A stretch of DNA of 64,000 nt from Terriglobales bacterium (GCA_035483045.1 DATHQD010000035.1:35921-99920); one strand, 5' to 3'. Positions 4,819 to 56,073 are shown, counted from the stretch's first letter. Numbers and translations: made by a program. Notes: generated by a model from the letters alone, not told the origin.

Positions 4819-6396
4819 TTACTTCCCAATGCAAAACGTCCCGAAAATTAGATTAAGTATGTCGTCGCTAGTAGTCGCCCCAGTAATTTCGTCAAGTGGC
4901 CGCAACGCTCCATACAAATCAAGCAGCAACATTTCATGCGGAACGCGTAATCCCACCGCCCCAATCGCCGCCTCCAGCGCGCCCAGCGCATCACTAACAA
5001 GTTTCTGATGCCGAACGCTGGTAAGAAAACCAGCCTCCGCCTGCCCACCAGGATCCCCACCGAGATGCCCCAAAATGGCCGCCCGCAACTCAGCAATCCC
5101 CGCCCCACTAACCGCCGAAGTAGAAATCCGCACCACCGGCTCACCCGCCAAACCCACATCCAAACATTCACCGTCGCCCGCCACGTGCCCACCGTCGCCC
5201 GCCAAACTCACGTAGGGGCAGACGCCCTCGTCTGCCCGAGCCGGGCGAAGCCCGGCAGCGCTCTCCCCCAATCCGCCAATAAGATCGCTCTTGTTCTCGA
5301 CAACAATCGCCGCTCGACCCGTAACCCGCCTGAGTAACTCCCTATCTTCCTCACTTACCACCTGCGAAGCATCAATAACCACTAGCACTAAGTCCGCGTC
5401 CGCCAGCGCCTCCATCGACTTCTTGATCCCTATACTCTCCGCTTCATCCAGTGCCCGCCGAATCCCAGCCGTGTCCACCAGTTCCACAGGAATTCCACCG
5501 ATCGCCACCGTCTCGCTCACTAGATCTCGCGTAGTCCCCGGCTGCGCCGTCACAATCGCTCGCTCCCGCTCCACCAGCCGATTAAACAAACTCGACTTCC
5601 CCACATTCGGACGCCCCACAATCGCCAGCGTCAGCCCCTCACGCACAATCTGTCCATACGCAAAACTAGCCGCCAGCTCCACCAGCGGCGTCTTCACCTG
5701 CCCGATGCGCTCCACAATCGTAGCGTCCGGAGCCACCGATACATCGTCGTCCGCAAAATCAATCCCCGCCTCCAGCAGCGCAATCAAATCCACCAACTTC
5801 TGCTTAATCGGCTTCAGCCGATTCGAAAGCGCGCCCTCCAGTTGCTGCGCCGCCACCTTAGCCTGAAAAAGCGTCTGCGAATCAATCAAATCCCGGACCG
5901 CCTCCGCCTGCGTCAAATCAATCCGCCCGTTAAGAAACGCGCGCATAGTAAATTCGCCCGGCTCCGCCAGCCGCGCCCCGCCAGCCATCGCCATCTCAAC
6001 AACATGCCGCAAAACCACCGGCGACCCATGCGCCGAAATCTCCACAATATCGTCGGTAGTATAAGAATGAGGCGCAGCAAAAAAAGTAACCACCACCTCA
6101 TCAATCCGCGATTGCGGTTCGATCAATACTCGCGTAGGGGCAGGTGTCCCCACCTGCTCAGCCGAGCGAAGCTCGGCAAAAAGGCCGGCGTCCGTAGAAA
6201 TCCCCGCGTCCGCTAAGCTCGGCCCGCCAGCCTCCACCAGATCACACCGAACCGCCCGTCCCGCTTCCCACTCCCGCCCGAGCCGCAGCATCCGACCCGC
6301 AATACCCCGCGCCTCCGGCCCCGCCAGCCGCACCACGCCAATCCCTCCGCGCCCCGGAGGCGTAGCAATCGCCACAATCGTGTCATCAAGATTCAT
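4819..6396 (-). CDS. mnmE: tRNA modification GTPase MnmE (TrmE), 525 aa with two in-frame REP-B-containing insertions
   Basis: N-terminus [20 protein letters not shown]-domain [12 protein letters not shown] and DTAGIR, C-terminal FCIGK. About 70 aa longer than the E. coli protein as I recall it (454 aa). Confidence 0.95.
5212..5256 (+). repeat. REP-B copy inside mnmE (forward)
   Basis: GTAGGGGCAGACGCCCTCGTCTGCCCGAGCCGGGCGAAGCCCGGC. Translated in the mnmE frame it reads [13 protein letters not shown]. Confidence 0.85.
6134..6177 (+). repeat. REP-B copy inside mnmE (forward)
   Basis: GTAGGGGCAGGTGTCCCCACCTGCTCAGCCGAGCGAAGCTCGGC. Translated in frame it reads [16 protein letters not shown]. Confidence 0.85.
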
Positions 6397-9747: not shown

Positions 9748-9752
9748 CATCT

Positions 9753-10297: not shown

Positions 10298-10375
10298 AGG
10301 TCAGATTGCAGAGGTAAAAGGTCGGAGGTAAAACCGTAAACCGCTTTTGACTTTCACCTCTGCAATCCGACCTCT
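10298..10375. terminator. hairpin downstream of jag (putative terminator)
   Basis: AGGTCAGATTGCAGAGGTAAAAGGTC pairs with GACTTTCACCTCTGCAATCCGACCT. Confidence 0.5.
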
Positions 10376-12122: not shown

Positions 12123-12129
12123 ACCGCGG

Positions 12130-12331
12130 TTTCCACCGCCTTTTCCACTCATGTGGCCGTTCTTCCAGCCTCCGGTCTGTGAGTCGTTTGTGGAAGTTGT
12201 GCGAGACCAGATCGAAACTTGACGAGGGTCCATTCCATCCATGGTCCTCCGCTAAAGCAAGGTCCGATTCTTCACACGAGGTCTCTACGCTAAAGCAACT
12301 GAACCGCAGGCACCTGGCCCGGTTTTCCACT
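12130..12331. promoter_or_regulatory. cluster of DnaA-box-like TTTCCAC motifs in the dnaA-dnaN spacer
   Basis: GTTTCCACC at 12129-12137, TTTTCCACT at 12141-12149, TGTGGAAGT (reverse complement ACTTCCACA) at 12189-12197, TTTTCCACT at 12323-12331. An AT-rich tract lies at 12361-12400. Confidence 0.5.
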
Positions 12332-12463
12332 TCTCCGACCCGCCTACGGTTACTACTGGTTGAATTGCTTTTGTATTTGATATAAGAAGAGAACAGAAGT
12401 AGAGTCGGGAGACCCAATATGCCGGTGGAAGTCGCCCCTGCCGTTGCCACGACATCAACGACC

Positions 12464-31857: not shown

Positions 31858-31870
31858 AAGGCAAGGTCAC

Positions 31871-31928
31871 AGGTCCTAGGTGACAGGTCCCAGGAAAACC
31901 AAAACCTGTGACCTGTCACCTAAGACTT
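31871..31928. repeat. palindromic GTGAC/GTCAC word hairpin between rimP and nusA
   Basis: AGGTCCTAGGTGACAGGTCCCAGG pairs with CCTGTGACCTGTCACCTAAGACTT. Confidence 0.65.
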
Positions 31929-32066: not shown

Positions 32067-33662
32067 ATGGCAAGTGAGCTTTACAACATCATCGAAGGGG
32101 TCAGCCGCGAAAAGGGAATCGACCCGCAAATTGTAGTTACCGCCGTTGAAGACGCCATCGTCGTCGCCACGCGCAAATACTACAAGACGCAGGAAAACCT
32201 GCGCGCCGTGCTCGATAAAGACAGCGGCAAGATCAACGCCTATGCGGTGAAGTCGATCGTCGAAAATCCCGAGCAGGTCGAAGATCCGAATCTCCAGGTC
32301 ACCGTCGACCAGGCCCGCAAACTCGATCCGAGCGCCGAAGCGGGCGGAGAACTGCTCATCCCTAAAGCTACCGAAGGCATACTCGGCCGCATCGCCGCGC
32401 AACTTGCCAAGCAAGTCATCTTTCAAAAAGTGCGCGAGGCCGAGCGCGACACTGTCTATAACGAATACATCGGACACGTAAACGAAATCGTAAACGCGTC
32501 CGTGAAGCGCCTCGAAGGCCCCGACGTCATTCTCGATATCGGCAAAGCCGAAGCCCGCATGGGACGCAAAGAACAATCGCGCCTCGAGTCCTTCGCCGTA
32601 GGCGAACGCATCCGTGTCGTAATCGTGCGCGTAGAAAAAGCAACCAAGGGTCCCGGCGTGATCGCCTCGCGCTCCGCGCCCGAGTTAGTTCAGCATCTCT
32701 TCCAAACCGAAGTACCGGAAATTTACGACGGCACCGTCGTGATCCGTGCCATCGCCCGCGAAGCCGGAGAGCGCACCAAGATCGCCGTCATGTCAAAAGA
32801 CAAAGACGTCGACGCCGTCGGCGCCTGCGTTGGTATGAAGGGCATGCGTGTGCAGTCGATCATCCGCGAACTCCGCGGAGAAAAAATCGACATCATCGAG
32901 TATCACGAGGATCCCGTCTCCTTCGCCGAAAAAGCGCTCCAGCCGGCGAAGGTCAGCCGCGTAACCGTAGTCGATGCCGCCGACAAGCATCTCGAAGTCG
33001 TCGTCGACGACACACAGCTTTCGCTAGCCATCGGCAAGAAGGGCCAGAACGTCCGTCTGGCGGCCAAACTCCTCGGCTGGAAGATCGACATCAAGAGCGA
33101 GGAAGAAAAGCGTCAGGAAGTCGAGCAGCAGATGTCCGCTCTCGTCACCCAAACTGTCACTCCGCTCGAAATCGTTACCGGACTCGGCGAAGGCCTAGTC
33201 GAGAAACTGAAAGCGGCCGGCGTCAACACCGTCGAGTCGTTAGCCGACATGACGCCCGAGCAGCTCGAGGCCATCGAAGGCATCGGCCCGAAGACGGTGG
33301 AAAAAATCAGCATCGCGGTCAATAATTACTTTGCCACTCTCGATGGCGGAGAAGCCGTAGCCACCGAGGAAGGCGCAGCCGAAGCCGGAATCGCCGAAGC
33401 TGGTATAGCTGAAGAGCCGTTGCCTGAGAACGAAGCGCTGCCGGAAAATACGGCTGAAGAAAGCACAGCCGAAGCAGCTCCGGTTGATGAGGCCCGGGTC
33501 GACGAGGCAACAATCGAAGAAGGCACCTTCGAAGCCGACGCGTTATCCGGCGAAACCGAAGCAGGCGGCGATGCCGCATCCGAAGATATCGCCGGGCATC
33601 AAACATCTGCGGCCGAAGAACAAGCCGCCACAGAAGAAGTTCCGGAAGACAAGCAGAACTAG
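32067..33662 (+). CDS. nusA: transcription termination/antitermination factor NusA with an acidic C-terminal tail
   Basis: S1 and two KH domains (GACVGMKGMRVQSIIRELRGEKIDII; AIGKKGQNVRLAAKLLGWKIDI) plus HhH repeats. Confidence 0.97.
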   Translation: MASELYNIIEGVSREKGIDPQIVVTAVEDAIVVATRKYYKTQENLRAVLDKDSGKINAYAVKSIVENPEQVEDPNLQVTVDQARKLDPSAEAGGELLIPKATEGILGRIAAQLAKQVIFQKVREAERDTVYNEYIGHVNEIVNASVKRLEGPDVILDIGKAEARMGRKEQSRLESFAVGERIRVVIVRVEKATKGPGVIASRSAPELVQHLFQTEVPEIYDGTVVIRAIAREAGERTKIAVMSKDKDVDAVGACVGMKGMRVQSIIRELRGEKIDIIEYHEDPVSFAEKALQPAKVSRVTVVDAADKHLEVVVDDTQLSLAIGKKGQNVRLAAKLLGWKIDIKSEEEKRQEVEQQMSALVTQTVTPLEIVTGLGEGLVEKLKAAGVNTVESLADMTPEQLEAIEGIGPKTVEKISIAVNNYFATLDGGEAVATEEGAAEAGIAEAGIAEEPLPENEALPENTAEESTAEAAPVDEARVDEATIEEGTFEADALSGETEAGGDAASEDIAGHQTSAAEEQAATEEVPEDKQN

Positions 33663-33753
33663 AGCCAGAGCATGGCGAGTTCGGAGGTCATTCCGAACCG
33701 AGCCCGCGAGGTTCGCCATCCGGAACCCTGATTGAGTAAGATTGTTTCGGGTA

Positions 33754-33811
33754 GGGCACGGCTTCAGCCGTGCCGCAAAGGCCAATAAAAACAGGGGCTT
33801 TACCCCTGAGG
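33754..33811 (+). repeat. REP-E full (forward)
   Basis: GGGCACGGCTTCAGCCGTGCCGCAAAG..ACAGGGGCTTTACCCCTGAGG. Confidence 0.75.
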
Positions 33812-33891
33812 CAGTGTCGGAAGCACCACGAGGGTTAGACATGCGAACCTAGGCACGCAACATAAGCAACAAGAAGAGGAAACGAGAGCGG

Positions 33892-36870
33892 ATGAGTAAG
33901 ATTCGAATTAACGATCTGGCCCGTGAGTTGGAAGTCAAGAGCAGGGAAATTCTTGACGTCCTCACCACGGTGGGCGTCACCGAGAAAAAAACCCACTCCA
34001 GTTCTCTGGAAGATTTCGAAGCCGACCTGGTGCGCAAGCATCTTCGTGGACGCTCCGATTCCTCCGCCAGCTCCTCGCGCTCTTCCTCGCGCGCCAGTCA
34101 GGGCGGAGACGACGAGATCAAAACCAAGATCGACCTCTCCCACATCTCTCAGCCCGGAGACGTCCTCCGCGCCATCCAGCAACGCAAGGCCGCCGCGGAA
34201 ACTCCCGCCGCCCGCCCCGTAGCCAAGCCGCCAGCATTCGAAACCAGAACTGAATCGCCCGCCGCCACGGCGCCCCCCGCCGCGCCTTCAGCGCCAAAAG
34301 CAGTTCCGCCAAAGCCGCCGGCAGAATCCGCCACACCCGCGACTCCGCAATCCCCATCAACGCCAAGACTAGTCACTCCGGCCTCCGTAGCCGCAACCTA
34401 TCGTCCGCCATCGGTAGTAGTAATTCCGCCGAAGACTCCACCGCCCGCCGCCACCGCCCCGACTAGCGCCGCGCCGCCGATCGCTGTTCCGCCGCGAGCC
34501 ACGCCGCCACCTGCAACCACCACTGCGCCCGCAGCGCCGCCCAGCGTCTCGATCCATGCCCCGAGTACCGCAAGCAGTCTCCCCAGCAACGTGACCCAGA
34601 TGCCCGCCGCGCCGCCCCGGCCATCCGCGCCCGTCGCTCCGCCGCCCCGCATGATCATGCCCCAGACCGGCCCGCGTCCCGTCTACAAAGCGCCCGCGCC
34701 ACCGCCCAGTGCCGCAGCCCCCGGAGCAACTTCGCGCCCCGCTCCCGGACGCCCCGTCCCCGGCCAGCCAATTTTTCAGCGTACCCCGCGTCCCCCAGTT
34801 TCCGGCGCCGGTCCAGGCACCCCGCGCCCGCCGCTTCGTCCCGGTGAACGTCGTCCCATGCATCCCACGCGCGTCGCGCCCGCAGGTTCGCGTCCCCTCG
34901 GCGTAGGCCCCGGAGCAGGCGCAATGCCCCCGCCCGGCCCATCGCGCCCCGGAGCTCGTCCCGGCGGCCCGTCGCGCCGCCCCGGCCAACGCTACGTTCC
35001 GCGAGGTGTGAAGGAAGGCCCGATGAAGGGCTACACTCCGCCGCCGCGCATGATCGTCAGCAACGAGCCCGCGCCCATCACGCGCAACATCACCATCACC
35101 GAAGGGATCTCGGTGAAAGATCTAGCCGAAAAACTCGGCCTTCGCGCCAAAGATTTAATCGCGCGCCTCGTAGTCCGTGGCGTCTTCGCCACCATCAATC
35201 AAACTCTCGACGCCGAACTCGCCAGCGAAATGGCCCGCTTCTTCGGAGCCGATACCGAAGTCATCACCTTCGAAGAGCAAGCCGCCAAAGACACGACCGA
35301 AGCCACCGAGAGCAGCGAAGAAGGAGCCGAAGCCATTCCGCGTCCGCCCGTAGTCACCATCATGGGCCACGTCGATCACGGCAAAACCACGCTCCTCGAT
35401 TCCATCCGCTCCACCAACGTCGCCGGCGGCGAAGCCGGCGGCATCACGCAACACATCGGCGCCTACAAAGTTCGCATCACCGACACCGCGTCTCCCGCCT
35501 ACGGCCGCGAGATCGTCTTCCTCGATACGCCCGGTCACGAAGCCTTCACCCGAATGCGTTCTCGCGGCGCGAAAGCCACCGACATCGTCGTCCTCGTCAC
35601 CGCCGCCGATGACGGCGTCATGCCGCAGACCGTAGAAGCCATCGACCACGCTCACGCCGCCGAAGTTCCCATCATCGTCGCCGTCAACAAAATCGATAAG
35701 CCCGGAGCGCTCCCCGAGCGCGTCAAAAAACAGCTCGCTGATCGCGGCCTAGTCCCTGAAGAATGGGGAGGCAAAACCGTATTCGTCGATGTCTCCGCCA
35801 AGCAGAAAACCAACCTCAATCTGCTGATGGAAATGATCCTGCTCACCGCCGACATCCAGGAATTGAAAGCCACTCCCGGCCGCGCCGCCAGCGGCCTCGT
35901 CCTCGAAGCCAAGCTCGATCGCGGTCGCGGTCCCGTCGGCACCATCCTCGTGCAGAACGGCACCCTCCGAGCCGGCGACAACTTTGTAGTCGGCAACGTT
36001 TACGGAAAAGTTCGCGCTATGTTCGACGATCGCGGCAAAGCCCTGAAAGAAGCGCCGCCCTCAACCCCCGTAGAAATCATCGGCCTCGAAGGCCTGCCGC
36101 AAGCCGGAGATCAATTCGTCGTAGTCACCGACCGCGAAAAAGCCCGCGACATCTCCGAATACCGCGAACAGAAAGCTCGAGAAGCCACGCTAGCCAAGAG
36201 CTCGCGTGTCTCGCTCGAAGGCCTGGCCGAACAATTAAAAACCGCAGGCATGAAAGAGCTGAACGTCATTCTGAAAGCCGATGTCCAAGGCTCCGTCGAA
36301 GTGCTGGGCGATCTACTAGGCCGCCTATCAAACGAAAAAGTTCGCCTCAAACTCCTCCGCTCCGGCATCGGAGCCATCACCGAGACCGACGTTCTCCTCG
36401 CTTCCGCCTCGAACGCCATCATCATCGGCTTCAACGTGCGTCCCGAGCGCAAAGCGCAAGAACTCGCCGACCAGGAAAAAGTCGACATCCGCCTGCACTC
36501 GATCATTTACGAGCTGCAAGACGAGATCAAGCGCGCCATGACCGGCCTGCTCGAACCGACCATCAAAGAGGTCTACCAGGGACGCGCCGAAGTTCTCGAA
36601 ACCTTCCGCATCCCCAAAGTCGGAACCATCGCCGGGTGCCGCGTAAGCGACGGCCTCATCAAGCGCGACTCCGAGGTCCGCCTGCTGCGCGACGACGTAG
36701 TAGTCTTCAAAGGCAAAGTAGCCTCTCTGCGCCGCTTCAAAGACGACGCCAGCCAGGTCACCAGCGGCATGGAGTGCGGTATCTCCATCCAAAACTACGG
36801 CGACATCAAAACCGGCGACGTAATCGAAGCCTTCGTAACCGAAAGAATAGCCGCCGAAGCCATCAAATAA
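33892..36870 (+). CDS. infB: translation initiation factor IF-2
   Basis: 992 aa. Pro/Ala-rich N-terminus, G-domain [26 protein letters not shown], and conserved C-terminal domains. Confidence 0.97.
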
Positions 36871-40464: not shown

Positions 40465-40471
40465 AAGAAAA

Positions 40472-40633
40472 CAGGAAAAGCGAGGAACAGGAAAAGCAAG
40501 AACCAGGAAAAGCAAGAAACGGGAAAAGCTGGAAACAGGAAAAGCCTTTCCTGTCTTTTGCTTTTCCTGGGTTTTGCTTTTCCTGCTTTTTGCCTTTCCT
40601 GGTTCTTGCCTTTCCTGTTCCTCGCTTTTCCTG
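40472..40633. repeat. ~160-nt REP-F palindrome filling the def-fmt spacer
   Basis: The left arm is CAGGAAAAGCGAGGAACAGGAAAAGCAAGAACCAGGAAAAGC... The reverse complement of the right arm is CAGGAAAAGCGAGGAACAGGAAAGGCAAGAACCAGGAAAGGC... Confidence 0.85.
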
Positions 40634-40642
40634 CTTCCCGCC

Positions 40643-45220: not shown

Positions 45221-45994
45221 CGCCAAAGCCGCCCCCACCACCGCCCCACCATCTCCCGTCTGCACAAAAGCAATCACCCGCAAATCCCCCAACCCCTCCG
45301 TCCCCTTCAGCTTCACCGTTACATCGCCATCAAACTTCTTCCCTCGCTCCACCCGCCCCACCTTTGTAATACTCTCCGCCACCGCCACATGCTGTATGTC
45401 CTTACCCTTGTTCTCCCCCGCCAACACATGCGACGACGCCCGATTCAGCGCTACCGCCACCATGACATCCGCCTTCTTCGCCTTCAAATTCTCCGGCAGC
45501 CCATCCACCGCCAAATGCAACTTCAGCGTCCGCCCATCCAGCCCCACCCCCGAAATCTGCACCGGAACCTTCACATCCCCGCGCGCCTTCTCCACCGCCG
45601 CCAATACCGCCCGACCGTCGCTCCCATTCAACTCCGCCACTCCATCCACCACCATCTGCGGCGTATAAGCCTCCTTCGTGCCCAGCCGCTGCACATAACC
45701 CTTCTGCCGGTCGGTATAGAAACTCGACGAATAAGCATCCTTCCACCCATCGTGATTCCAATAATCCACGTGCTCGCTAAGCACAATCGCCTGCGCCCCT
45801 GCCACCGGCTGCAACCCATCCAGCTTTCCCAACAGCGAATCCGCCGGAGGACAACTAGAACACCCCTCCGAAGTAAACAACTCCACCAAAACTGGAGCCG
45901 CCGCAGAAGAAGCCGCATCCCCCGCCCAGGCAACAGCACCCGCAGAACAAATCAAAGAACCAACCAACCAAAGCCGTAAGCCAGCCAAAGTCAT
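45212..45994 (-). CDS. DUF1223-family thioredoxin-like secreted protein
   Basis: VLVELFTSEGCSSCPPAD..LSEHVDYWNHDGWKD. I place the start at MTLAGLRLWLV, which begins a signal peptide. Confidence 0.7.
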   Translation of the reverse strand: MTLAGLRLWLVGSLICSAGAVAWAGDAASSAAAPVLVELFTSEGCSSCPPADSLLGKLDGLQPVAGAQAIVLSEHVDYWNHDGWKDAYSSSFYTDRQKGYVQRLGTKEAYTPQMVVDGVAELNGSDGRAVLAAVEKARGDVKVPVQISGVGLDGRTLKLHLAVDGLPENLKAKKADVMVAVALNRASSHVLAGENKGKDIQHVAVAESITKVGRVERGKKFDGDVTVKLKGTEGLGDLRVIAFVQTGDGGAVVGAALAGK

Positions 45995-46053
45995 ATCTCC
46001 CTCCAATCCATATGTGATGCGGACAACCATCCACGCCACCAATTCTAGCTCGT

Positions 46054-46077
46054 GTGGAGCGGAAACTCCTGTCCGCT
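46054..46077 (+). repeat. REP-D (forward)
   Basis: GTGGAGCGGAAACTCCTGTCCGCT. Confidence 0.7.
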
Positions 46078-46100
46078 AACGCCGACACAACCTGCCTCGC

Positions 46101-46145
46101 GTAGGGGCAGGTGCCCTCACCTGCCCAGCCGAGCGCCAGCTCGGT
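46101..46145 (+). repeat. REP-B (forward); last REP-B before the polarity switch
   Basis: GTAGGGGCAGGTGCCCTCACCTGCCCAGCCGAGCGCCAGCTCGG. Confidence 0.85.
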
Positions 46146-46217
46146 CCCCCAAAATCTCGAATTCGCCTTAACCCCACGCTCCGCTAAAATCATGCGAACG
46201 ACAAACGACCGCCCTCC

Positions 46218-47090
46218 ATGCAAACCGCCCGCATCTCCGCCCTACTAGAACCCTTCCTAATCCATCCGCTCTCCGAACAGCAGCTAAATCAAATATCGAT
46301 ATACATCGATCTATTGCAACGCTGGAACGCCCGCATCAACCTGACCGCCATCCGCACCGAAGAAGAAATAGTAACCCGCCACTTCGGCGAATCCCTATTC
46401 CTGGCCCGCCACGTATTTCCAAATGTGGAGCGGACACTCCTGTCCGCTGAAGCCAACTCCGCCGACATTCCGGCCCGGCCAATCTCCCGAAATCAATGTC
46501 ATCCTGAGCGGAGCCAGGGCATGCGCGAAGCCGATGCCACGGCGGAGTCGAAGGACCCCTACTCGACCAATCAAGCAACGCGCGCTATAGAAAAAGCAAG
46601 CCCGCCCGAGAGCGTAAAGGACACCCGAGATCTAAGCGGTTCAACTGGGTACTGGGTACCGGCTACTAGGTACTGTAAGGTCCTGGATATAGGCTCCGGA
46701 GCCGGATTCCCCGCTCTACCCCTAAAAATCTGGGCCCCTGAGATCCACCTCACCCTGATCGAATCCAACCACAAAAAATCCGCCTTCCTTAAAGAGGCAT
46801 CCCGAGCCCTTACATTCACTAACGTCAATATAATGGCCGAACGAACCGAAGCCCTCCTGGCACGCCCCGACCACCCCCAAGCCGAAGTAGTAACCCTAAG
46901 AGCAGTCGAACATTTCGAAGCCGTCCTCCCCCAGTCCGTCAGTTTCCTGGCCGCAAAAGCCACTCTAGCCCTTCTCATAGGAACGTCTCAACTCCGCTCC
47001 CTAACCATTCAAACCTCCATGAATTGGCAATCACCGATCCCCATACCCAGCTCAAATACCAGAGTGCTAATTATCGGACGAGCGAATTAG
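46218..47090 (+). CDS. rsmG: 16S rRNA (guanine527-N7)-methyltransferase RsmG (GidB), 290 aa with a ~85-aa in-frame repeat-derived insertion
   Basis: The N-terminal region (LLQRWNARINLTAIRTEEEIVTRHFGESL) and the SAM motif (KVLDIGSGAGFPALPLKI..LIESNHKK..VTLRAV) are separated by REP-D/REP-C-encoded sequence. Confidence 0.85.
   Translation: MQTARISALLEPFLIHPLSEQQLNQISIYIDLLQRWNARINLTAIRTEEEIVTRHFGESLFLARHVFPNVERTLLSAEANSADIPARPISRNQCHPERSQGMREADATAESKDPYSTNQATRAIEKASPPESVKDTRDLSGSTGYWVPATRYCKVLDIGSGAGFPALPLKIWAPEIHLTLIESNHKKSAFLKEASRALTFTNVNIMAERTEALLARPDHPQAEVVTLRAVEHFEAVLPQSVSFLAAKATLALLIGTSQLRSLTIQTSMNWQSPIPIPSSNTRVLIIGRAN
46425..46448 (+). repeat. REP-D inside rsmG (forward)
   Basis: GTGGAGCGGACACTCCTGTCCGCT, read in frame as VERTLLSA. 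Confidence 0.75.
46497..46562 (+). repeat. REP-C full inside rsmG (forward); last forward REP in the window
   Basis: TGTCATCCTGAGCGGAGCCAGGGCATGCGCGAAGCCGATGCCACGGCGGAGTCGAAGGACCCCTAC, read in frame as CHPERSQGMREADATAESKDPY. Confidence 0.85.
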
Positions 47091-47238
47091 TGGATAAATT
47101 GCCATTGCACAAACATAGAAGTGGAAAACGAGGCCAATTGTAGCGCAATAATGACATTATAAGTGGCGGATAAACGGGTAATGCACCTTGAGGCGCAACG
47201 CAGGTCGCACCATGAACTAGGCGAACATGAAGCGAAAA

Positions 47239-47254
47239 TGTTCCACGTGGAACA
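47239..47254. promoter_or_regulatory. parS: parS site 1 (perfect palindrome)
   Basis: TGTTCCACGTGGAACA, against the canonical TGTTNCACGTGAAACA. Confidence 0.85.
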
Positions 47255-47290
47255 TTCTTCCCGTCCTGAAGCAAAGCTAGTGCTCTTGTA

Positions 47291-47306
47291 TGTTCCATAT
47301 GGAACG
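47291..47306. promoter_or_regulatory. parS: parS site 2 (variant)
   Basis: TGTTCCATATGGAACG. Confidence 0.7.
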
Positions 47307-47347
47307 TATTGGTGGCCACCTACCGGGGGTTACTGATCAAGAAGTAG

Positions 47348-47363
47348 TGTTCCACATGGAACA
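47348..47363. promoter_or_regulatory. parS: parS site 3 (variant)
   Basis: TGTTCCACATGGAACA. Confidence 0.8.
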
Positions 47364-47447
47364 TTCATCGACTTGCATCATAATCCGGCATTGCTTTCGC
47401 CGGATCTTTCTAATATTCTGGCGCGCAATAGACAGAAAGAAACAATC

Positions 47448-48233
47448 ATGGGACGTGTCATTGCTGTTGCCAACCAGAAGGGTGGCGTTGGGAAGACTAC
47501 GACTGCCATCAACCTTGCAGCATCTTTAGCCGCCGCCGAAGTCAATACGTTGCTGGTTGACTGCGATCCGCAGTCCAACTCTACCAGTGGTCTTGGGTTG
47601 GTGAAGGATCCGGAACGGATCAGCATCTACGATGTTTTGATGGGGGCGGCTTCGGCTGAGGAGGCGCTTCAGCTTACCGAGCTCGAGCAACTTTGGCTGA
47701 TCCCTTCCCATAAGAACCTTATCGGGGCGAACCTCGAGCTGGTCTCGGCGGAGCGGAGGGAGTACCGTCTGCGCGATGCGCTCGCTCCGTTGCTTGATCG
47801 ATTTCAGTTCCTCGTGCTGGATTGTCCTCCGGCATTGGACCTTCTGACTTTGAATTCGCTGGTGGCGGCGGATGGAGTTTTGATCCCTATGCAGGCGGAG
47901 TACTTTGCTTTGGAGGGAGTGTCGGAGCTGCTCGATACTATAGAGAGGATACGGGTCGAGTTGAATCCTGGACTGGCCATCGAAGGCGTGGTGCTGACTA
48001 TGTTTGATGAGCGGACTAATCTAGCTCAGCAGGTGGCGGAGGAGTTGAAAAAATATTTTGGGGATAAGTTGTGCACCACTACGATCCCGCGGAACATACG
48101 GCTGGCGGAGGCTCCCAGTCATGGGCTGCCGGCGCTGGTGTATGACGTTCGGTCGAGGGGGGCGGAGAGTTATATACGGCTGGCTAAAGAGATTTTGGAT
48201 CGACAGGCGGGGGCAGCTCAGGGAGCCGCTTAG
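47448..48233 (+). CDS. parA: chromosome partitioning ATPase ParA/Soj
   Basis: MGRVIAVANQKGGVGKTTTAINLAASLA (deviant Walker A). Uses the internal ATG of track ORF 47373..48233. Confidence 0.95.
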   Translation: MGRVIAVANQKGGVGKTTTAINLAASLAAAEVNTLLVDCDPQSNSTSGLGLVKDPERISIYDVLMGAASAEEALQLTELEQLWLIPSHKNLIGANLELVSAERREYRLRDALAPLLDRFQFLVLDCPPALDLLTLNSLVAADGVLIPMQAEYFALEGVSELLDTIERIRVELNPGLAIEGVVLTMFDERTNLAQQVAEELKKYFGDKLCTTTIPRNIRLAEAPSHGLPALVYDVRSRGAESYIRLAKEILDRQAGAAQGAA

Positions 48234-48476: not shown

Positions 48477-49577
48477 GTGATGATCACTATGGCGAATGTG
48501 GCGGCTGATTCGAAGAATTCGGAGAAGGTGGCGGAGAAGCGGCGGGCTTTGGGGCGAGGGTTGGAATCGCTTTTGCCTGGGCCGCGGGTTGTGATTGCTC
48601 CGCCCACCCTTCCGCAAAGTGCGCGGAAGGATGGGGCACCCGCGGAGAACAGTTCTCAGCTGTCAGTCGTCAGTTCTGAGGCTGCGAGTGCTGGTTCTCA
48701 GGCAGTCGTCGAACCTCCCGCGGGTGCGGTTGCTGGAACGGTGGCGCAGATACAGGCGGCGGCTTCGGGGCAGAGTGCTGACATGGGCGTGCAGTTATTG
48801 GCGATTGATTTGATTGAGCGGAATCCTTATCAGACGCGGTACGAATTTAAGAAAGAGGCGTTGGAGGAACTGAGCAGATCGATCAAGGCGCAGGGAGTGT
48901 TGCAGCCGATTGTGGTGCGTCCGGGGGCGGAGGGAAAGTTCGTACTGATTCTGGGCGAGCGGCGGTTGCGGGCTTCGATCCTGGCGGAGATGGCGACGAT
49001 CCCGGCGTTTGTGAGGCGGGTGTCGGAGCAACAAGCGGCGGAGATGACGCTGGTTGAGAACCTGCAGCGGCAGGATCTGAACTGCATAGAGCAAGCGGAG
49101 GCGTTCGCGACCTTGAGCACGCAATTCAAGATGACGCAGGAGGAGATTTCCGCGCGGGCTGGGATCTCGCGAGAGACGGTGACGAATTACATGCGGCTGC
49201 TGAACCTGCCGCACAGCGTGATTGGAGCGCTGCAGACGGGGAAGCTTTCGTATAGCCACGCGCGCGTGCTGTTGCAACTGCGGGACGATGCGGAGATCTG
49301 GAAACTGGCGGAGAAGGTGATGGAAGAGAAGCTGTCGGTGGGGAAACTTGAGGAGTTGGTGGTGGGGAGCGGGTTGCCGAGGCCGGGGTCGGTGCACAAG
49401 TCGGGCGGGGCGCGGTGGGTGGATCCGAATGTGAAGGCGGCGCAGAGGTCGCTTGAGGAAGTTTTGGGGATGCGGGTGCGGATTGCTGACCGTAGAGGTA
49501 GAGGGAAGATTTCGATTGAGTATGCGACGCTAGAGGATTTTGATCGGGTGGTGGGGATGCTTAAGGGGAAGGGGTAG
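48477..49577 (+). CDS. parB: chromosome partitioning protein ParB/Spo0J with an expanded, partly REP-encoded N-terminal linker
   Basis: RRALGRGLESLL .. LIERNPYQTRYEFKKEALEELSRSIKAQGVLQPIVVR..GERRLRA .. HTH. The start is one of GTG 48477, ATG 48480 or ATG 48489. Confidence 0.93.
   Translation: MMITMANVAADSKNSEKVAEKRRALGRGLESLLPGPRVVIAPPTLPQSARKDGAPAENSSQLSVVSSEAASAGSQAVVEPPAGAVAGTVAQIQAAASGQSADMGVQLLAIDLIERNPYQTRYEFKKEALEELSRSIKAQGVLQPIVVRPGAEGKFVLILGERRLRASILAEMATIPAFVRRVSEQQAAEMTLVENLQRQDLNCIEQAEAFATLSTQFKMTQEEISARAGISRETVTNYMRLLNLPHSVIGALQTGKLSYSHARVLLQLRDDAEIWKLAEKVMEEKLSVGKLEELVVGSGLPRPGSVHKSGGARWVDPNVKAAQRSLEEVLGMRVRIADRRGRGKISIEYATLEDFDRVVGMLKGKG
48602..48641 (-). repeat. REP-A inside parB (reverse)
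   Basis: GCCCACCCTTCCGCAAAGTGCGCGGAAGGATGGGGCACCC, read in frame as PPTLPQSARKDGAP. Confidence 0.85.
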
Positions 49578-49598: not shown

Positions 49599-49670
49599 GA
49601 CAGGAAAGGCAAAGACCAGGAAAGGCAAAGACCAGGAAAGGCTAGAGTCGGCAAAGGCAGGAGCGGCAGG
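49599..49670 (+). repeat. REP-F low-complexity array (GGAAAGG orientation)
   Basis: GACAGGAAAGGCAAAGACCAGGAAAGGCAAAGACCAGGAAAGGC.. Confidence 0.6.
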
Positions 49671-51463: not shown

Positions 51464-53320
51464 ATGGGACTTGTGAATGCGTTGTTTGGGCGGCCGCTGG
51501 CTTCTTCGGAGGATGAGGGGGAGCGGATTAGTCCGTTGCAGGGGATTCCTACGTTTGGGCTCGATGCTTTGAGCTCGGCGGCGTACGGGCCGGAGGCGGC
51601 GCTGACGATTTTGCTGCCTTTGGGATTGCTGGGCGTGAAGTATATTGTGCCGCTTACTTTCGCGATTATTGGGTTGCTGATCATTGTTTATTTCAGTTAC
51701 CGGCAGACGATTGCAGCTTATCCGAATGGCGGGGGATCGTACACGGTTGCTAAGGAGAATCTGGGCGAAGGCGCGGGGCTGGTGGCGGGCGCGGCGTTGA
51801 TGATCGATTACCTGCTGAATGTGGCGGTGGGAATTTCGGCGGGGATTGGGGCGCTGGTTTCGGCGGTGCCATCGTTGTTGCCGCACACTTTGGGGCTTTG
51901 CTTATTGGTGCTGGTGATATTGACGGTGGTGAATCTTCGCGGGATCAAGGAGGCGGGGACGGCGTTTGTGGCACCTACATATTTTTTTGTGGGGACACTG
52001 GCGATCGTGATTCTGGTGGGATTTTATAAGGTGATTGTTTCGGGAGGGCATCCGGCGGCAGTGGCTTCTTTGGCGTCGCCGGTCGCGCCTTCCGGGACGG
52101 TCGAGATGGTGGGAGCGTGGATTCTGGTGAAGGCGTTTGCCTCGGGATGCACGGCGCTGACTGGCGTGGAGGCGGTGAGCAATGGAGTGCAGGCGTTTCG
52201 GAAGCCGGTGGTGGATGGGGCGCGAGTTACTTTGACGGCGATTATTGCGATCCTGATTGTGCTGCTGGGGGGAATTGCCGTACTGGTACGTTACTACGGA
52301 ATTGTAGCTACGGACCCGGGAGCTCCGGGGTATCAGAGCGTGTTGTCGTTGCTGACGGCGGCGGTCGCGGGGAAAGGGATTTTTTACGATGTAACGATGT
52401 TCTCGGTGCTGGTGGTGTTGTGTTTGTCGGCGAACACATCGTTTGCGGATTTTCCGCGGCTGTGCCGGATGATTGCGCGGGACGATTATTTGCCGCATTC
52501 GCTGACGACGCGAGGACGGCGGCTGGTGTTTTCGCAGGGGATATGGGGGCTGGCGATATTGGCGGCGCTGCTGCTGATTTTATTTGGCGGGGTGACGGAC
52601 CGGTTGATTCCGCTGTTTGCGGTGGGAGCGTTTATGGCGTTCACGCTGTCGCAGGCGGGGATGGTGGGACATTGGCGGAAGACGAAGGGATTTTGCGGGG
52701 CGATGGTGGTGAACGGATTTGGAGCGCTGGCCACGGGGCTGACGGTGATGGTGATTCTGGCAGCGAAATTTTTGGAGGGGGCGTGGGTGGTGGTGCTGTT
52801 GTTGCCGGCGTTGCTGATTTTCATGGGCAGGATTAAGCGTCATTATGAGGAGGCGAATGAAGAGGTGGCGCTGAAGGGTGGAGTGGAGTTGACGGCGGAG
52901 AATGCGGCGCCTCCGATTGTGCTAGTGCCGGTGGACCGGTGGAATGCGGCGACGGAGAAGGCGTTGCAGTTTGCGCTGACGCTGTCTCCGGATGTGGAGG
53001 CGGTGCATGTGACGTGCGATGCGGACGATGACAAGGCGCCGTGGTCGGAGAAGCCTCCGGCGGGGCAGCGGGTGCCGAAGCTGGTGACGTTGGAGTCGCC
53101 GTATCGGCTGGTGGTGCATCCGATAGTGGATTATGTGTTGAAGGTGGAGAAGGAGAATCCGGCGCGGACGGTGGCGGTGGTGATTGCTTCGATGGTGGAG
53201 CGGCATTGGTATCACTATTTTCTGCACAATCAGAGAGGGCAGCTGTTGACGGCGCAGCTGCTGCTGCGCGGGGATGAGCGGATTAATATTGTGAATGTGC
53301 CCTGGTATTTGAAGGCGTAG
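51464..53320 (+). CDS. APC-superfamily permease with a C-terminal cytosolic domain, KimA-like (K+/H+ symporter family)
   Basis: 618 aa. N-terminus FGRPLASSEDEGERISPLQGIPTFGLDALSSAAYGPEAAL resembles the KimA GKPL..LSSDALSSVAYGTE motif. About 12 TM segments plus a ~170-aa soluble tail. Confidence 0.7.
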   Translation: MGLVNALFGRPLASSEDEGERISPLQGIPTFGLDALSSAAYGPEAALTILLPLGLLGVKYIVPLTFAIIGLLIIVYFSYRQTIAAYPNGGGSYTVAKENLGEGAGLVAGAALMIDYLLNVAVGISAGIGALVSAVPSLLPHTLGLCLLVLVILTVVNLRGIKEAGTAFVAPTYFFVGTLAIVILVGFYKVIVSGGHPAAVASLASPVAPSGTVEMVGAWILVKAFASGCTALTGVEAVSNGVQAFRKPVVDGARVTLTAIIAILIVLLGGIAVLVRYYGIVATDPGAPGYQSVLSLLTAAVAGKGIFYDVTMFSVLVVLCLSANTSFADFPRLCRMIARDDYLPHSLTTRGRRLVFSQGIWGLAILAALLLILFGGVTDRLIPLFAVGAFMAFTLSQAGMVGHWRKTKGFCGAMVVNGFGALATGLTVMVILAAKFLEGAWVVVLLLPALLIFMGRIKRHYEEANEEVALKGGVELTAENAAPPIVLVPVDRWNAATEKALQFALTLSPDVEAVHVTCDADDDKAPWSEKPPAGQRVPKLVTLESPYRLVVHPIVDYVLKVEKENPARTVAVVIASMVERHWYHYFLHNQRGQLLTAQLLLRGDERINIVNVPWYLKA

Positions 53321-53380
53321 GAAAGGCATGGGCAGGAAAAGAAAGGGGCAGGAAAAGCAAAGGGCAGGAAAAGCAAGAGC
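53320..53380 (+). repeat. REP-F low-complexity array (GGAAAAG orientation)
   Basis: GGAAAGGCATGGGCAGGAAAAGAAAGGGGCAGGAAAAGCAAAGGGCAGGAAAAGC. Confidence 0.6.
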
Positions 53381-54769: not shown

Positions 54770-55307
54770 GAGGACCGCGAGGAGATTTGGGGTTATTCTC
54801 GTCCCCGGATATTCTGGTTGAAAAGGCGCCGGGTGGCCCACATCTCGTGTTCGCGAAGTATCCCCACTTCTCGCAAAGGACGCGAGAAATGGGGCACCCG
54901 GCCGTGTGGAGTAATAAACAAACAGGCCCGCAAACATAGCTTGAACCCTTCGCGAGAAGCGCAGGACGGACCACCTCAACCTCAGCATACGCCAGCGAAA
55001 AACCCCACTTCTCGCAAAGGACGCGAGAAATGGGGCACCCGGCGAGAAATGGGGCACCCGGCCGTGTCGACCGGTGATGCGAATGCTTCCTGGCGCAGGG
55101 TGGAGGGTTGTCCCTGGTTGAAAAGGTGCCAGGTGGCGCACATCTACCATTCGCGAAGTATCCCCACTTCTCGCAAAGAGCGCGAGAAATGGGGCACCCG
55201 GCCTATTTATTTAAGGGCTTTTGATTTGAACTCATGATGAGTCCGATCTCGTAGCAATGTTCATCCGTCACAGACATGACCTTGCATTGATGCGTAGGAT
55301 TTTATTC

Positions 55308-55946
55308 ATGCCTTGGGGCTTGAAGCGTTATTACGGCACCGGAAGCCTCCATTTCATCACCTGGAGCTGCTATCGACGCAGCCCACTGCTAGGCAGCCCC
55401 GCGCGACGCGACCTGGTACTTACTGCCCTCGAACTGATGCGCGTTCGCTATCGCTACGCCGTGATCGGATACGTGGTCATGCCCGAACACGTACATCTAT
55501 TGATTTCCGAACCTTTGATAGGCGATCCCTCGAAGATAATTCAGGCTGTGAAGCTGAGCGTCTCCCGGCGGCTGGCCATTGCGGGCGAATTCTCTGGCCG
55601 GTTCTGGCAGAGTCGCTTCTATGATTTCAATCTGTGGGGCCACCAGAAAGAGATTGAGAAACTGAAGTACATGCATCGCAATCCGGTGGTGCGCGGACTG
55701 GTGGCAAGCCCGGAGGATTGGCGGTGGAGCAGCTACCGATCCTATGCATACGGAGAAGCAGGATTAGTTCGGATCAACGACTGGACTTGGGGGAGGAGAA
55801 AATTCGATGGAGCGCTGGCTGAGGGTTGGTTGGTGTCGGCGAAAAGCCCCACTTCTCGCAAAGGACGCGAGAAATGGGGCACCCGGCTAGTCCGGAGGAT
55901 GGCTGTAGTAGCTACCGATTCTATGCTTACGGAGAGGCGGGATTAG
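55308..55946 (+). CDS. REP-associated tyrosine transposase (RAYT; IS200/IS605 TnpA-like Y1 HUH enzyme)
   Basis: HFITWSCYRR.., HUH motif PEHVHLLIS, catalytic-Tyr motif KYMHRNPVVRGLVASPEDWRWSSY. The ORF reads through a REP-A2 copy at its 3-prime end. Confidence 0.85.
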   Translation: MPWGLKRYYGTGSLHFITWSCYRRSPLLGSPARRDLVLTALELMRVRYRYAVIGYVVMPEHVHLLISEPLIGDPSKIIQAVKLSVSRRLAIAGEFSGRFWQSRFYDFNLWGHQKEIEKLKYMHRNPVVRGLVASPEDWRWSSYRSYAYGEAGLVRINDWTWGRRKFDGALAEGWLVSAKSPTSRKGREKWGTRLVRRMAVVATDSMLTERRD

Positions 55947-56073
55947 TTCGGATCAACGACTGGACTTGGTGGGAGGAGAAAATTCGATGGAGCGCTGGCT
56001 GAGGGGTGGATGGTGTCGGCGAAAAGCCCCACTTCTCGCAAAGGACGCGAGAAATGGGGCACCCGGCTAGTCC
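55711..56073. repeat. tandem duplication (~182 bp x 2) of the RAYT 3-prime end plus REP-A2
   Basis: Copy A is 55711-55893 and copy B is 55894-56073. Both contain GATTAGTTCGGATCAACGACTGGACTTGG..GAGAAAATTCGATGGAGCGCTGGCTGAGGG..REP-A2..GGCTAGTCC. Confidence 0.9.

What the first reader, a model, noticed from the sequence alone, without database searches (positions are those of the whole stretch)
46416..46676. ~85-aa repeat-derived insertion (REP-D + REP-C + GGTAC-word tract) splitting RsmG just before its SAM-binding motif
RsmG is normally about 205-215 aa, and this ORF is 290 aa. The conserved ..IVTRHFGESLFLARHV and KVLDIGSGAGFPALPLKI are separated by FPNVERTLLSAEANSADIPARPISRNQCHPERSQGMREADATAESKDPYSTNQATRAIEKASPPESVKDTRDLSGSTGYWVPATRYC. 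Within it, 46425-46448 is REP-D and 46497-46562 is a full REP-C. A GGGTACTGGGTACCGGCTACTAGGTACTG low-complexity tract follows. The frame and downstream motifs are intact. This is the last gene before the polarity switch.
Basis: partly seen in the sequence, partly recalled or inferred. Interest (0 to 1): 0.65.

Follow-up and report, generated by a model that had tools for sequence, protein, structure and literature searches.

The report
Repeat elements embedded in-frame in RsmG
A soil acidobacterium's 16S rRNA methyltransferase gene (rsmG) carries about 80 extra codons built from mobile palindromic repeats, sitting in a floppy surface loop; the gene still looks functional, and the same loop holds different repeat mixtures in all 80 related species checked, so this is a new example of a known phenomenon.

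Summary
ORF 46218-47090 (+, 290 aa) is RsmG/GidB. An 87-codon insert (46416-46676) sits between the N-terminal helices and strand beta1 with SAM motif I.

The insert contains three repeat-derived parts:
- REP-D (46425-46448): a canonical GTGG-headed REP hairpin.
- REP-C (46497-46562): one of 17 full copies in the window.
- A degenerate heptanucleotide array (46644-46675).

The gene looks functional, not decaying:
- The core is under purifying selection (pN/pS 0.30). The insert evolves almost neutrally (0.83), and only its frame is kept.
- AlphaFold predicts an RsmG fold with the insert disordered.
- The identical protein is encoded in three independent assemblies.

The same loop is expanded by 11-94 aa in all 80 Terriglobales/Acidobacteriota orthologues, always open. 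The repeat modules are gained, lost, nested and swapped between lineages.

Context in the window:
- mnmE and parB also carry in-frame REPs.
- A REP-associated tyrosine transposase (RAYT) gene lies at 55257-55946.
- REP orientation flips exactly at the GC-skew switch and parS cluster just downstream of rsmG.

Verdict: tolerated selfish-DNA insertions in a permissive loop, working like Rickettsia RPEs and intragenic REPs. New member of a known kind; moderate interest.

The parts
46218..47090 (+). rsmG (gidB) ORF, 290 aa, 16S rRNA m7G527 methyltransferase homologue
   Evidence: ORF list. Pfam GidB 1.1e-36 and TIGR00138 124 bits > 99.5. The AF2 model matches 1xdz, 3g8b and 1jsx with TM 0.72-0.74 normalised to the target.
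46218..46415 (+). N-terminal helical part of RsmG (aa 1-66), highly conserved
   Evidence: Many invariant columns in alignment A1. pLDDT about 73-94, mostly 86 or higher, with helices 3-13, 20-40 and 48-66. Aligns to 1xdz residues 18-69.
46416..46676 (+). 87-codon insert (aa 67-153) in the loop between the last N-terminal helix and strand beta1
   Evidence: Split HMM match. pLDDT < 50 for residues 77-150. pN/pS 0.83 against 0.30 in the core.
46425..46448 (+). REP-D: GTGG head, then 8-bp stem AGCGGACA/TGTCCGCT with loop CTCC. The conserved tail runs to about 46457. Encodes VERTLLSA.
   Evidence: Three copies in the window, 0 expected. Hairpin -13.6 kcal/mol, z -2.5. Orthologue copies carry compensatory stem variants and GTAG or GTGG heads.
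46449..46496 (+). Spacer 1, origin unknown
   Evidence: No dispersed copies. The only matches are at the orthologous rsmG position in L001 and L002.
46497..46562 (+). REP-C copy, 66 nt, encoding CHPERSQGMREADATAESKDPY. Conserved arms TGTCATCCTGAGCG and GAGTCGAAGGACCCCTAC flank a variable hairpin, here decayed to 10 of 14 pairs.
   Evidence: nhmmer finds 17 full and 6 partial copies. Copy alignment. Hairpin energies: -14.7 kcal/mol here against -29.8 in L002. Outer and inner stem covariation.
46563..46643 (+). Spacer 2. The first ~20 nt resemble the 3' extension of some REP-C copies; the rest is of unknown origin.
46644..46675 (+). Degenerate heptanucleotide tandem array (ACTGGGT x 4.6), encoding TGYWVPATRY. 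It corresponds to the NWQLATG / YWVLGTG peptides of orthologues.
   Evidence: TRF: period 7, 76% matches. Orthologue peptides. Related arrays lie outside rsmG in other genomes.
46677..46730 (+). Strand beta1 plus SAM-binding motif I (KVLDIGSGAGFPALPLKI)
   Evidence: Invariant D157, G159, G161, A162, G163, F164, P165 in A1. Aligns to ICDVGAGAGFPSLPIKI of 1xdz.
46054..46144 (+). REP cluster in the DUF1223-rsmG intergenic region: a second REP-D copy (46054-46077) and a GTAGGGGCAGGTGCCC-type REP (46096-46144)
47239..47363 (.). Three parS-like palindromes (TGTTCCACGTGGAACA and variants) at the GC-skew switch and GC minimum. This is the point where REP orientation flips.
   Evidence: 3 sites, 0.13 expected. 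(skew). (orientation flip, conserved in the orthologous loci).
55257..55946 (+). REP-associated tyrosine transposase (RAYT) gene flanked by hairpin repeats; the candidate mobilising enzyme class
   Evidence: NCBIfam NF047646 93.7 bits > cut-off 80. Pfam Y1_Tnp 2.2e-9. Flanking repeats read directly.
5198..5257 (-). In-frame REP (GTAGGGGCAG family) inside mnmE, about aa 380
6128..6179 (-). Second in-frame REP of the same family inside mnmE, about aa 73, in the TrmE_N domain
   Evidence: The 117 TrmE_N profile positions span 153 residues..
48594..48680 (+). In-frame REP of the family that flanks the RAYT, followed by a heptamer array, inside the parB N-terminal linker

Best explanation
The insert is selfish DNA tolerated in a permissive protein loop.

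How it got there (inferred). Small palindromic REP-type elements (REP-D, REP-C) and a slippage-prone heptamer array landed in the codons for the surface loop joining RsmG's N-terminal helices to strand beta1. They were probably moved by Y1/HUH tyrosine transposases (RAYTs) acting on single-stranded DNA at the replication fork.

Why it persists. The elements are stop-free in the frame used, and the total length is a multiple of three. They are therefore translated as an ~80-aa disordered excursion, and the methyltransferase fold and SAM site are left intact. Selection now acts only on keeping the frame open. The amino-acid sequence of the insert drifts, and its REP-C hairpin is decaying.

Wider pattern. 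Across Terriglobales the same loop keeps gaining, losing, nesting and swapping such modules.

Shown versus inferred.
- Shown: the repeat identity, the position in the fold, the intact and selected core, the near-neutral insert, and the turnover between species.
- Inferred: the mobilisation mechanism, and retained m7G527 activity.
For: Repeat identity.

Canonical REP anatomy of REP-D. It has a GTGG head 0 nt from an 8-bp stem with a 4-nt loop. This fits the definition quoted in PMC6006769. It also resembles the P. putida REP TGTGGGAGCGGGCgTGCCCGCGAA in PMC2817692.

Fold and disorder. AF2 gives a core pLDDT of about 90 and pLDDT < 50 for residues 77-150. The top Foldseek hits are RsmG structures.

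Selection.
- WIN against L001: core pN/pS 0.30 with codon-position differences [35,14,67]; insert 0.83 with [18,18,23]; Fisher p = 0.002. Other pairs behave similarly.
- All 81 inserts are open in frame 0, where about 88 stops would be expected from the off-frame stop density.

Turnover.
- Loop length ranges from 11 to 94 aa, with different module sets.
- A clean 24-nt nested insertion separates L014 from L009. A clean 33-nt hairpin deletion separates L046 from L042. L006, L007, L012 and L013 show incompatible character groupings.

Mobilisation.
- A RAYT gene lies in the window.
- REP-C orientation is strictly tied to the replichore: 19 '+' on the left and 4 '-' on the right in the window, and 7/0 and 0/17 in the orthologous loci.

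Not unique to rsmG: mnmE and parB carry in-frame REPs too.

Reality of the sequence.
Against: - No transcript, proteomic or enzymatic data exist. No RNA runs were found, so expression and activity are inferred.
- The RAYT in the window is flanked by a different REP family. No cognate enzyme for REP-C or REP-D was shown.
- REP-C is not a canonical REP. Its GTAG lies on the opposite strand, about 16 nt from the inner hairpin.
- Every orthologue reads REP-C in the same frame, although a second forward frame is open in 13 of 16 copies. Random independent insertion alone does not explain this.
- Synonymous divergence is lower in the insert than in the core, 0.32 against 0.56. This hints at some DNA-level constraint or at conversion between copies.
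Confidence: 0.8

Rival explanations
1. DNA-level function. The REP hairpins inside rsmG are kept because they act as DNA or RNA elements next to the replication origin and parS cluster, for example as sites for topology, segregation or replication factors. On this view the protein merely has to tolerate them.
For: - rsmG is the last gene before the skew switch and parS cluster in 71 of 71 testable loci, and REP orientation flips there.
- Many orthologues keep near-perfect REP-C stems of different sequence inside the coding region.
- Insert dS is lower than core dS.
Against: - The hairpin in this window is decayed to 10 of 14 pairs, at a rate compatible with neutral loss.
- Some orthologues lack REP-C or REP-D altogether (L066, L074, P0051), or have the hairpin cleanly deleted (L046).
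- Perfect palindromes can also be restored by copy swapping or template switching, without selection.
Confidence: 0.08
2. Exaptation. The repeat-encoded peptide has become a functional disordered region of RsmG, for example modulating access to 30S assembly intermediates or binding a partner.
For: An expanded loop is present in all 80 orthologues. The CHPERS and ESKDPY peptide ends are widely conserved.
Against: - The conserved peptide ends coincide with the conserved DNA arms of extragenic REP-C copies.
- Insert pN/pS is about 0.8, with flat codon-position differences.
- Module content and length vary freely, from 11 to 94 aa.
- The region is predicted to be disordered.
Confidence: 0.06
3. 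Decaying pseudogene. The insertion inactivated rsmG, and another copy does the work.
For: An ~80-aa insertion directly before motif I could be expected to disturb the SAM site. The rest of the genome could not be searched.
Against: - Core pN/pS is 0.30.
- There are no stops or frameshifts in 81 of 81 genes.
- The catalytic motifs are invariant.
- The rsmG-parA-parB synteny is conserved.
- Only one locus per species was among the 80 kept.
Confidence: 0.03
4. The insert is removed after transcription or translation (intron or intein), or it is an assembly chimera.
For: None positive. This was considered only because of the size and position of the insert.
Against: - No Rfam family hit, including introns.
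- No intein or other Pfam domain in the insert.
- The insert is a mosaic of dispersed repeats whose length varies between species.
- Identical sequence occurs in independent assemblies.
Confidence: 0.02

Closest known systems
Rickettsia palindromic elements (RPEs) inserted in-frame in protein-coding genes (Ogata et al. 2000, as summarised in PMC10969869 and PMC3733652)
   Same: Dispersed palindromic repeats sit in-frame inside conserved housekeeping genes. They are translated as extra peptide segments compatible with the protein fold. Several genes are affected per genome; here these are rsmG, mnmE and parB.
   Different: - A different phylum, with no sequence relationship tested or expected.
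- The elements here are shorter (24-66 nt against about 150 bp) and come from several families stacked in one loop.
- The same loop is a hotspot across a whole order, with visible gain, loss and swapping.
GTAG/GTGG-headed REPs mobilised by RAYTs, including intragenic REPs (Nunvar 2010 PMC2817692; Di Nocera 2013 PMC3733652; Quentin 2018 PMC6006769)
   Same: - REP-D has the canonical head plus hairpin.
- A RAYT gene flanked by hairpin repeats is in the window.
- Intragenic, frame-preserving REPs in loops and linkers have been described for other bacteria.
   Different: - REP-C is atypical: conserved arms around a variable hairpin, with the GTAG distant and on the other strand.
- Copies are singletons with strict replichore-specific orientation, not inverted REPIN/BIME pairs.
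- Acidobacterial REP families of this kind are not listed in those surveys, as far as was checked.
RsmG/GidB 16S rRNA m7G527 methyltransferase (PDB 1jsx, 1xdz, 3g88)
   Same: The same family by HMM score, fold, motif I and the conserved RH, E-S and R-A-V positions. The same rsmG-parA-parB neighbourhood.
   Different: The loop before beta1 is 86 aa instead of 7-8 aa. Activity was not tested.
IS200/IS605 single-strand transposition coupled to the lagging-strand template (background in PMC6006769)
   Same: Element orientation is tied to the direction of replication, as seen here for REP-C and two other REP families.
   Different: These elements encode no transposase. The link to a specific enzyme, and the strand on which it acts, are inferred only.

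Membership tests
RsmG/GidB | Scores above the curated family cut-offs | tested here: met
   TIGR00138 124 bits against a cut-off of 99.5. Pfam PF02527 126 bits against 27. The match falls in two stretches because of the insert.
RsmG/GidB | Class I Rossmann methyltransferase fold with the N-terminal helical extension seen in solved RsmGs | tested here: met
   AF2 core pLDDT about 90. The best Foldseek hits are 1xdz, 3g8b and 1jsx, with TM 0.72-0.74 normalised to the target.
RsmG/GidB | SAM motif I (D-x-G-x-G-x-G-F/L-P) and conserved downstream acidic and R-A motifs | tested here: met
   D157, G159, G161, A162, G163, F164, P165, E182, R228, A229 and V230 are invariant in 32 sequences. They align with 1xdz and 3g88.
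RsmG/GidB | N7 methylation of G527 of 16S rRNA; loss gives low-level streptomycin resistance | not testable with these tools
   Needs a modification assay or complementation experiment.
Canonical REP (RAYT-type) | GTAG or GTGG tetranucleotide 0-2 nt 5' of a hairpin with a 7-20 bp stem and a 2-5 nt loop (definition in PMC6006769) | tested here: met
   REP-D is GTGG, then an 8-bp stem, then a 4-nt loop. Orthologue copies have GTGG or GTAG heads and compensatory stems.
Canonical REP (RAYT-type) | The same head-plus-hairpin rule applied to REP-C | tested here: not met
   GTAGGGG is present only on the opposite strand, about 16 nt from the inner hairpin. REP-C is REP-like or MITE-like, not canonical.
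Canonical REP (RAYT-type) | Many dispersed, mostly extragenic copies | tested here: met
   REP-C has 17 full and 6 partial copies in 64 kb, and 16 of the 17 full copies lie outside conserved genes. REP-D has only 3 copies in the window.
Canonical REP (RAYT-type) | A cognate RAYT gene flanked by the same REP family (REPtron) | tested here: inconclusive
   A RAYT is present (NF047646, 93.7 bits > 80). It is flanked by a different hairpin family, the one found in parB. The rest of the genome was not available.
REPIN/BIME | REPs arranged as inverted pairs | tested here: not met
   All REP-C copies on one replichore share a single orientation.
RPE-like coding palindromes (functional analogy) | A dispersed palindromic repeat in-frame inside a conserved gene, with the ORF intact and the insert in an exposed region | tested here: met
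   Exposure is a prediction only. Sequence relatedness to the Rickettsia RPE families was not tested.
Intein / self-splicing intron | Intein splicing domains, or group I/II intron RNA structure | tested here: not met
   No Pfam domain in the insert. No Rfam hit.
Phase-variable contingency repeat | A long, near-perfect tandem tract whose unit length is not a multiple of three | tested here: not met
   The unit is 7 nt, but there are only 4.6 copies at 76% identity. The tract is too short and degenerate for efficient slippage.

The most novel reading that the evidence does not exclude
The RsmG loop may be more than a passive dumping ground. It could be a targeted landing pad next to the replication origin.

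On this reading, REP elements of fixed replichore orientation are repeatedly inserted or exchanged there by a site- and strand-specific single-strand mechanism. Their hairpins are then maintained for a DNA-level role near oriC and parS.

This would make rsmG a coding sequence shaped by origin-proximal chromosome architecture. The strict replichore polarity of three REP families would also be a new genome-wide polar signal.
Probability: 0.12. Interest if true: 0.65.

Novelty: new member of a known kind. Interest (0 to 1): 0.4.

Why it matters
- **Protein tolerance.** An essential-pathway enzyme can absorb about 40% extra length of mobile-element sequence directly in front of its cofactor motif. 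The site stays a hotspot across an entire bacterial order. This gives a natural series of 11-94 aa loop variants for studying protein tolerance to insertions and how REP-type elements are born, decay and swap.
- **Annotation.** Long RsmG, MnmE and ParB proteins in Acidobacteriota are not errors or pseudogenes.
- **Transposition model.** The side observation that REP orientation follows the replichore bears on the single-strand transposition model for RAYT-type elements. So does the finding that it flips exactly at the skew switch and parS cluster.

Tried and rejected
- **Rfam.** The whole window at gathering thresholds and 45900-47500 at E <= 5 gave no relevant family. REP-C is therefore not a described RNA family, ribozyme or intron.
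- **Peptide search for REP-C in other proteins.** Only short 'hypothetical' ORFs came back. These are spurious calls on intergenic copies, and only 365 candidates were scored, so the search says nothing about long proteins.
- **RNA evidence.** No RNA runs hold the gene.
- **RNAalifold on the REP-C copies.** Run on a MAFFT alignment, it gave only a weak consensus, because the variable stems are misaligned. Stem integrity was judged copy by copy instead.
- **A contig 'joint' in run X1.** It skips 355 nt (46393 to 46749) but has only 20 nt on one side and is not a multiple of three. It was treated as a related organism or an alignment edge, not as an insert-free allele.
- **Hypotheses considered and rejected.** Pseudogene, intein or intron, assembly chimera and phase-variation switch; the reasons are under the rival explanations and membership tests.
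- **Stop codons as the cause of frame use.** The idea that stops alone force REP-C into one frame was rejected. Forward frame 1 is open in 13 of 16 copies and one reverse frame in 11 of 16.

Full report
**1. The observation**

It is RsmG/GidB: Pfam PF02527 scores 1.1e-36, and TIGR00138 scores 124 bits against a cut-off of 99.5. Each match falls in two stretches because something interrupts the domain.

Against solved structures, residues 18-69 align with residues 18-69 of B. subtilis GidB (1xdz), and residues 145-236 align with residues 64-156. About 80 residues are therefore extra, in a loop that is 7-8 aa in 1xdz, 3g88 and 1jsx. The interruption sits directly before KVLDIGSGAGFP, which is strand beta1 plus SAM motif I.

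**2. What the insert is made of**

- **REP-D (46425-46448).** It is GTGG followed by a perfect 8-bp stem (AGCGGACA/TGTCCGCT) with loop CTCC. It folds at -13.6 kcal/mol, z = -2.5. Two more copies lie in the window, where none is expected by chance; one is 370 nt upstream in the rsmG promoter region. This matches the published definition of a canonical REP: GTAG or GTGG 0-2 nt from a 7-20 bp stem with a 2-5 nt loop (PMC6006769). It closely resembles Pseudomonas REPs such as TGTGGGAGCGGGCgTGCCCGCGAA (PMC2817692).
- **REP-C (46497-46562).** It is one of 17 full and 6 partial copies in the 64-kb window. Its anatomy is a conserved 5' arm TGTCATCCTGAGCG, a 12-14 bp hairpin, and a conserved 3' arm GAGTCGAAGGACCCCTAC. 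The hairpin sequence differs between copies but stays paired. A short outer helix (TCCT/AGGA) is compensated to TCCC/GGGA in a divergent subfamily. It is REP-like rather than canonical, because the GTAG lies on the other strand and far from the hairpin.
- **The 'GGTAC-word tract' (46644-46675).** It is a period-7 tandem array with 4.6 copies at 76% matches. The NWQLATG and YWVLGTG peptides of orthologues are the same kind of heptamer (AACTGGC, TACTGGG) read through all three frames.
- **The two spacers (46449-46496 and 46563-46643).** They have no dispersed copies. They match only the orthologous position in the two closest relatives, and their origin stays unexplained.

**3. Is the sequence real and the gene alive?**

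The sequence is real. A 455-nt contig from an independent assembly of a soil-metagenome run covers 46371-46825 with no differences, and two further runs cover parts of the insert identically. The identical 290-aa protein is encoded on contigs from three assemblies.

The fold is intact. AlphaFold2 with a 32-sequence alignment gives a confident core (pLDDT about 90) and pLDDT below 50 for residues 77-150. The REP-D-encoded residues are predicted to prolong the preceding helix. The best structural matches are the RsmG structures 1xdz, 3g8b and 1jsx, with TM 0.72-0.74 normalised to the target. Motif I and the other conserved positions are invariant among 32 relatives.

Selection separates core from insert. 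Between this gene and its closest relative (L001):
- The core shows pN/pS 0.30, with differences concentrated at third codon positions [35,14,67].
- The gaplessly aligned insert shows pN/pS 0.83 with a flat pattern [18,18,23] (Fisher p = 0.002).
- Other species pairs behave alike.

The core is therefore under purifying selection. In the insert, only the reading frame is protected.

**4. The wider picture**

A scan of one genome per species returned rsmG loci from 80 Terriglobales and other Acidobacteriota, all metagenome-assembled, with a best identity of 74%. In every one the segment between RHFGES and LDIGSGAGFP is open, but the loop ranges from 11 to 94 aa.

From the stop density in the other two frames, about 88 stops would be expected in the used frame across the 81 inserts. 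None is observed.

The loops are mosaics of recognisable repeat peptides. These include VARTLLSANA (REP-D), CHPERS...ESKDPY (REP-C), a hairpin-less short form CHPERSEGP, NWQLATG heptamers, APSKLRLGG, HDFSRA...SAPEG and CPERSRR.

Within the closest clade the states are:
- REP-D + REP-C + heptamer in this window, L001 and L002.
- REP-C + heptamer in L003 and L004.
- Heptamer only in L066.

Sister pairs show clean events:
- A 24-nt nested insertion in L014 compared with L009.
- A 33-nt excision of just the hairpin, between GCGGAG direct repeats, in L046 compared with L042.
- In L006, L007, L012 and L013, the hairpin type, the presence of REP-D and the 3' spacer give three incompatible groupings. 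This means swapping or recurrent events.

Within the closest clade the REP-C hairpin is one homologous sequence, perfect in L002 (14 of 14 pairs, -29.8 kcal/mol). It is most decayed here (10 of 14 pairs, -14.7 kcal/mol), which is compatible with neutral erosion after one inherited insertion.

**5. Context in the window**

Of 44 repeated segments, only four lie inside domain-validated genes:
- One is in rsmG.
- Two are in mnmE. Both belong to a GTAGGGGCAG-type REP family that also sits just upstream of rsmG.
- One is in the parB linker, and it is followed by another heptamer array.

The other 16 full REP-C copies are extragenic.

ORF 55257-55946 is a REP-associated tyrosine transposase: NCBIfam NF047646 scores 93.7 bits against a cut-off of 80, and Pfam Y1_Tnp scores 2.2e-9. 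It is flanked by at least five copies of a hairpin repeat of the family found in parB.

GC skew flips from about -0.3 to +0.25 at 47.1-47.3 kb. This is the rsmG-parA spacer, which is also the GC minimum and holds three parS-like palindromes. All 19 REP-C matches to the left are on the + strand, and all 4 to the right are on the - strand, whatever the direction of neighbouring genes.

The same pattern holds in the orthologous loci:
- Skew is negative before and positive after rsmG in 71 of 71 loci with enough flanking sequence.
- parS-like sites lie within 600 nt downstream of rsmG in 72 of 80 loci.
- REP-C copies are 7 '+' and 0 '-' upstream, and 0 '+' and 17 '-' downstream.

**6. Mechanism**

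Shown:
- The insert is made of dispersed repeat elements.
- It lies in a loop predicted to be disordered.
- The core is under selection.
- The insert's peptide sequence is nearly unconstrained.
- The loop turns over quickly between species, always in multiples of three.

Inferred:
- The elements are moved by RAYT-type HUH enzymes on single-stranded DNA at the fork. This rests on the REP anatomy, a RAYT in the window, and the strict replichore polarity, which parallels what is known for IS200/IS605 (PMC6006769).
- Deletions and nested insertions arise by slippage or template switching at hairpins and short direct repeats.
- RsmG keeps its activity.

Unexplained:
- All orthologues read REP-C in the same frame, although another forward frame is usually open.
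- Synonymous divergence is lower in the insert than in the core, 0.32 against 0.56.

Both points could reflect one old insertion followed by conversion of the hairpin from other copies, or a site-specific mechanism.

**7. Comparison with what is known, and novelty**

In-frame palindromic repeats in housekeeping genes are known from Rickettsia (RPEs; PMC10969869). They are also known from GTAG/CGTC REPs in Opitutus, Thauera and others, with the same 'tolerated in loops or linkers' reading (PMC3733652; PMC6006769).

This case works like those. It adds a new lineage and host protein, stacked elements of several families, and an order-wide hotspot with visible dynamics. It is a new member of a known kind. 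The gene itself is an ordinary RsmG by every testable criterion.

**8. Verdict**

- Observation: confirmed.
- Best explanation (tolerated selfish-DNA insertions in a permissive loop of a functional RsmG): confidence about 0.8.
- Interest: moderate, 0.4. It comes mainly from the hotspot and turnover series and from the replichore-polarised REPs, not from RsmG biology.

Noticed in passing
window 55257-55946 (+), flanks 54860-55200 and 55840-56070: A REP-associated tyrosine transposase gene (NF047646, 93.7 bits > 80). It is flanked by at least 5 copies of the hairpin repeat CCCCACTTCTCGCAAAGGACGCGAGAAATGGGGCACCCGG, giving a REPtron-like unit. A 180-nt direct duplication (55703-56073) repeats the 3' end of the gene.
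   Followed up: partly
window 4819-6396 (-), REPs at 5198-5257 and 6128-6179: mnmE is 525 aa and carries two in-frame copies of a GTAGGGGCAG-type REP. One lies in the TrmE_N domain (117 profile positions spread over 153 residues). The other lies between the NKSD motif and the end of the G domain.
   Followed up: partly
window 48594-48680 within parB (48477-49577, +): The parB linker lies between the N-terminal KRRALGRGLESLL peptide and the ParB_N domain. It contains an in-frame REP of the RAYT-flanking family, followed by a heptamer array related to those at 9642-9747.
   Followed up: partly
window 1-64000; switch at about 47100-47300: GC skew is unusually strong: about -0.2 to -0.35 on the left and +0.2 on the right in 4-kb windows, and up to -0.59 locally. 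It flips in the rsmG-parA spacer, at the GC minimum (0.457) and three parS-like palindromes. The flip is conserved in 71 of 71 orthologous loci.
   Followed up: yes
window-wide; loci L001-L080: REP-C copies have strictly replichore-specific orientation: 19 '+' on the left and 4 '-' on the right in the window, and 7/0 and 0/17 in the loci. This is independent of the direction of neighbouring genes. The GTAGGGGCAG REP and the RAYT-flanking REP show the same flip. Such polarity is typical of IS200/IS605 and is not generally described for REPs.
   Followed up: partly
window 6892-13588: rnpA, yidC, dnaA (10698-12122) and dnaN (12419-13588) lie about 35 kb left of the skew switch, on the + strand. 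They would be transcribed head-on to replication if the origin is at about 47.2 kb. nusA and infB (32067-36870, +) are in the same situation.
   Followed up: no
window 9642-9673 and 9717-9747; 31864-31894; 46644-46675: Short heptanucleotide arrays of about 4.5 units recur. The pair at 9.6-9.7 kb forms an inverted pair (AGTTGTC / ACTGACA). Related arrays lie outside rsmG in other genomes, at L020, L037 and L076.
   Followed up: partly
window 40469-40636; 49601-49642; 53312-53377: Tandem 16-mers (AAACAGGAAAAGCAAG x 4.8) are directly followed by their approximate reverse complement (x 5.4), at or overlapping the fmt start. Related 16-mer arrays lie downstream of parB and at 53.3 kb.
   Followed up: no
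window 2361-2710: A 127-nt unit is repeated 2.8 times at 93% identity. Each unit contains one copy of the RAYT-flanking/parB-type hairpin, in the opposite orientation to the copies right of the skew switch.
   Followed up: no
rsmG insert against core, window 46416-46676 and L001/L002: Synonymous divergence is lower in the insert (dS about 0.32) than in the core (about 0.56), although amino-acid change is faster there. Possible causes are conversion from other REP copies or a DNA-level constraint.
   Followed up: partly
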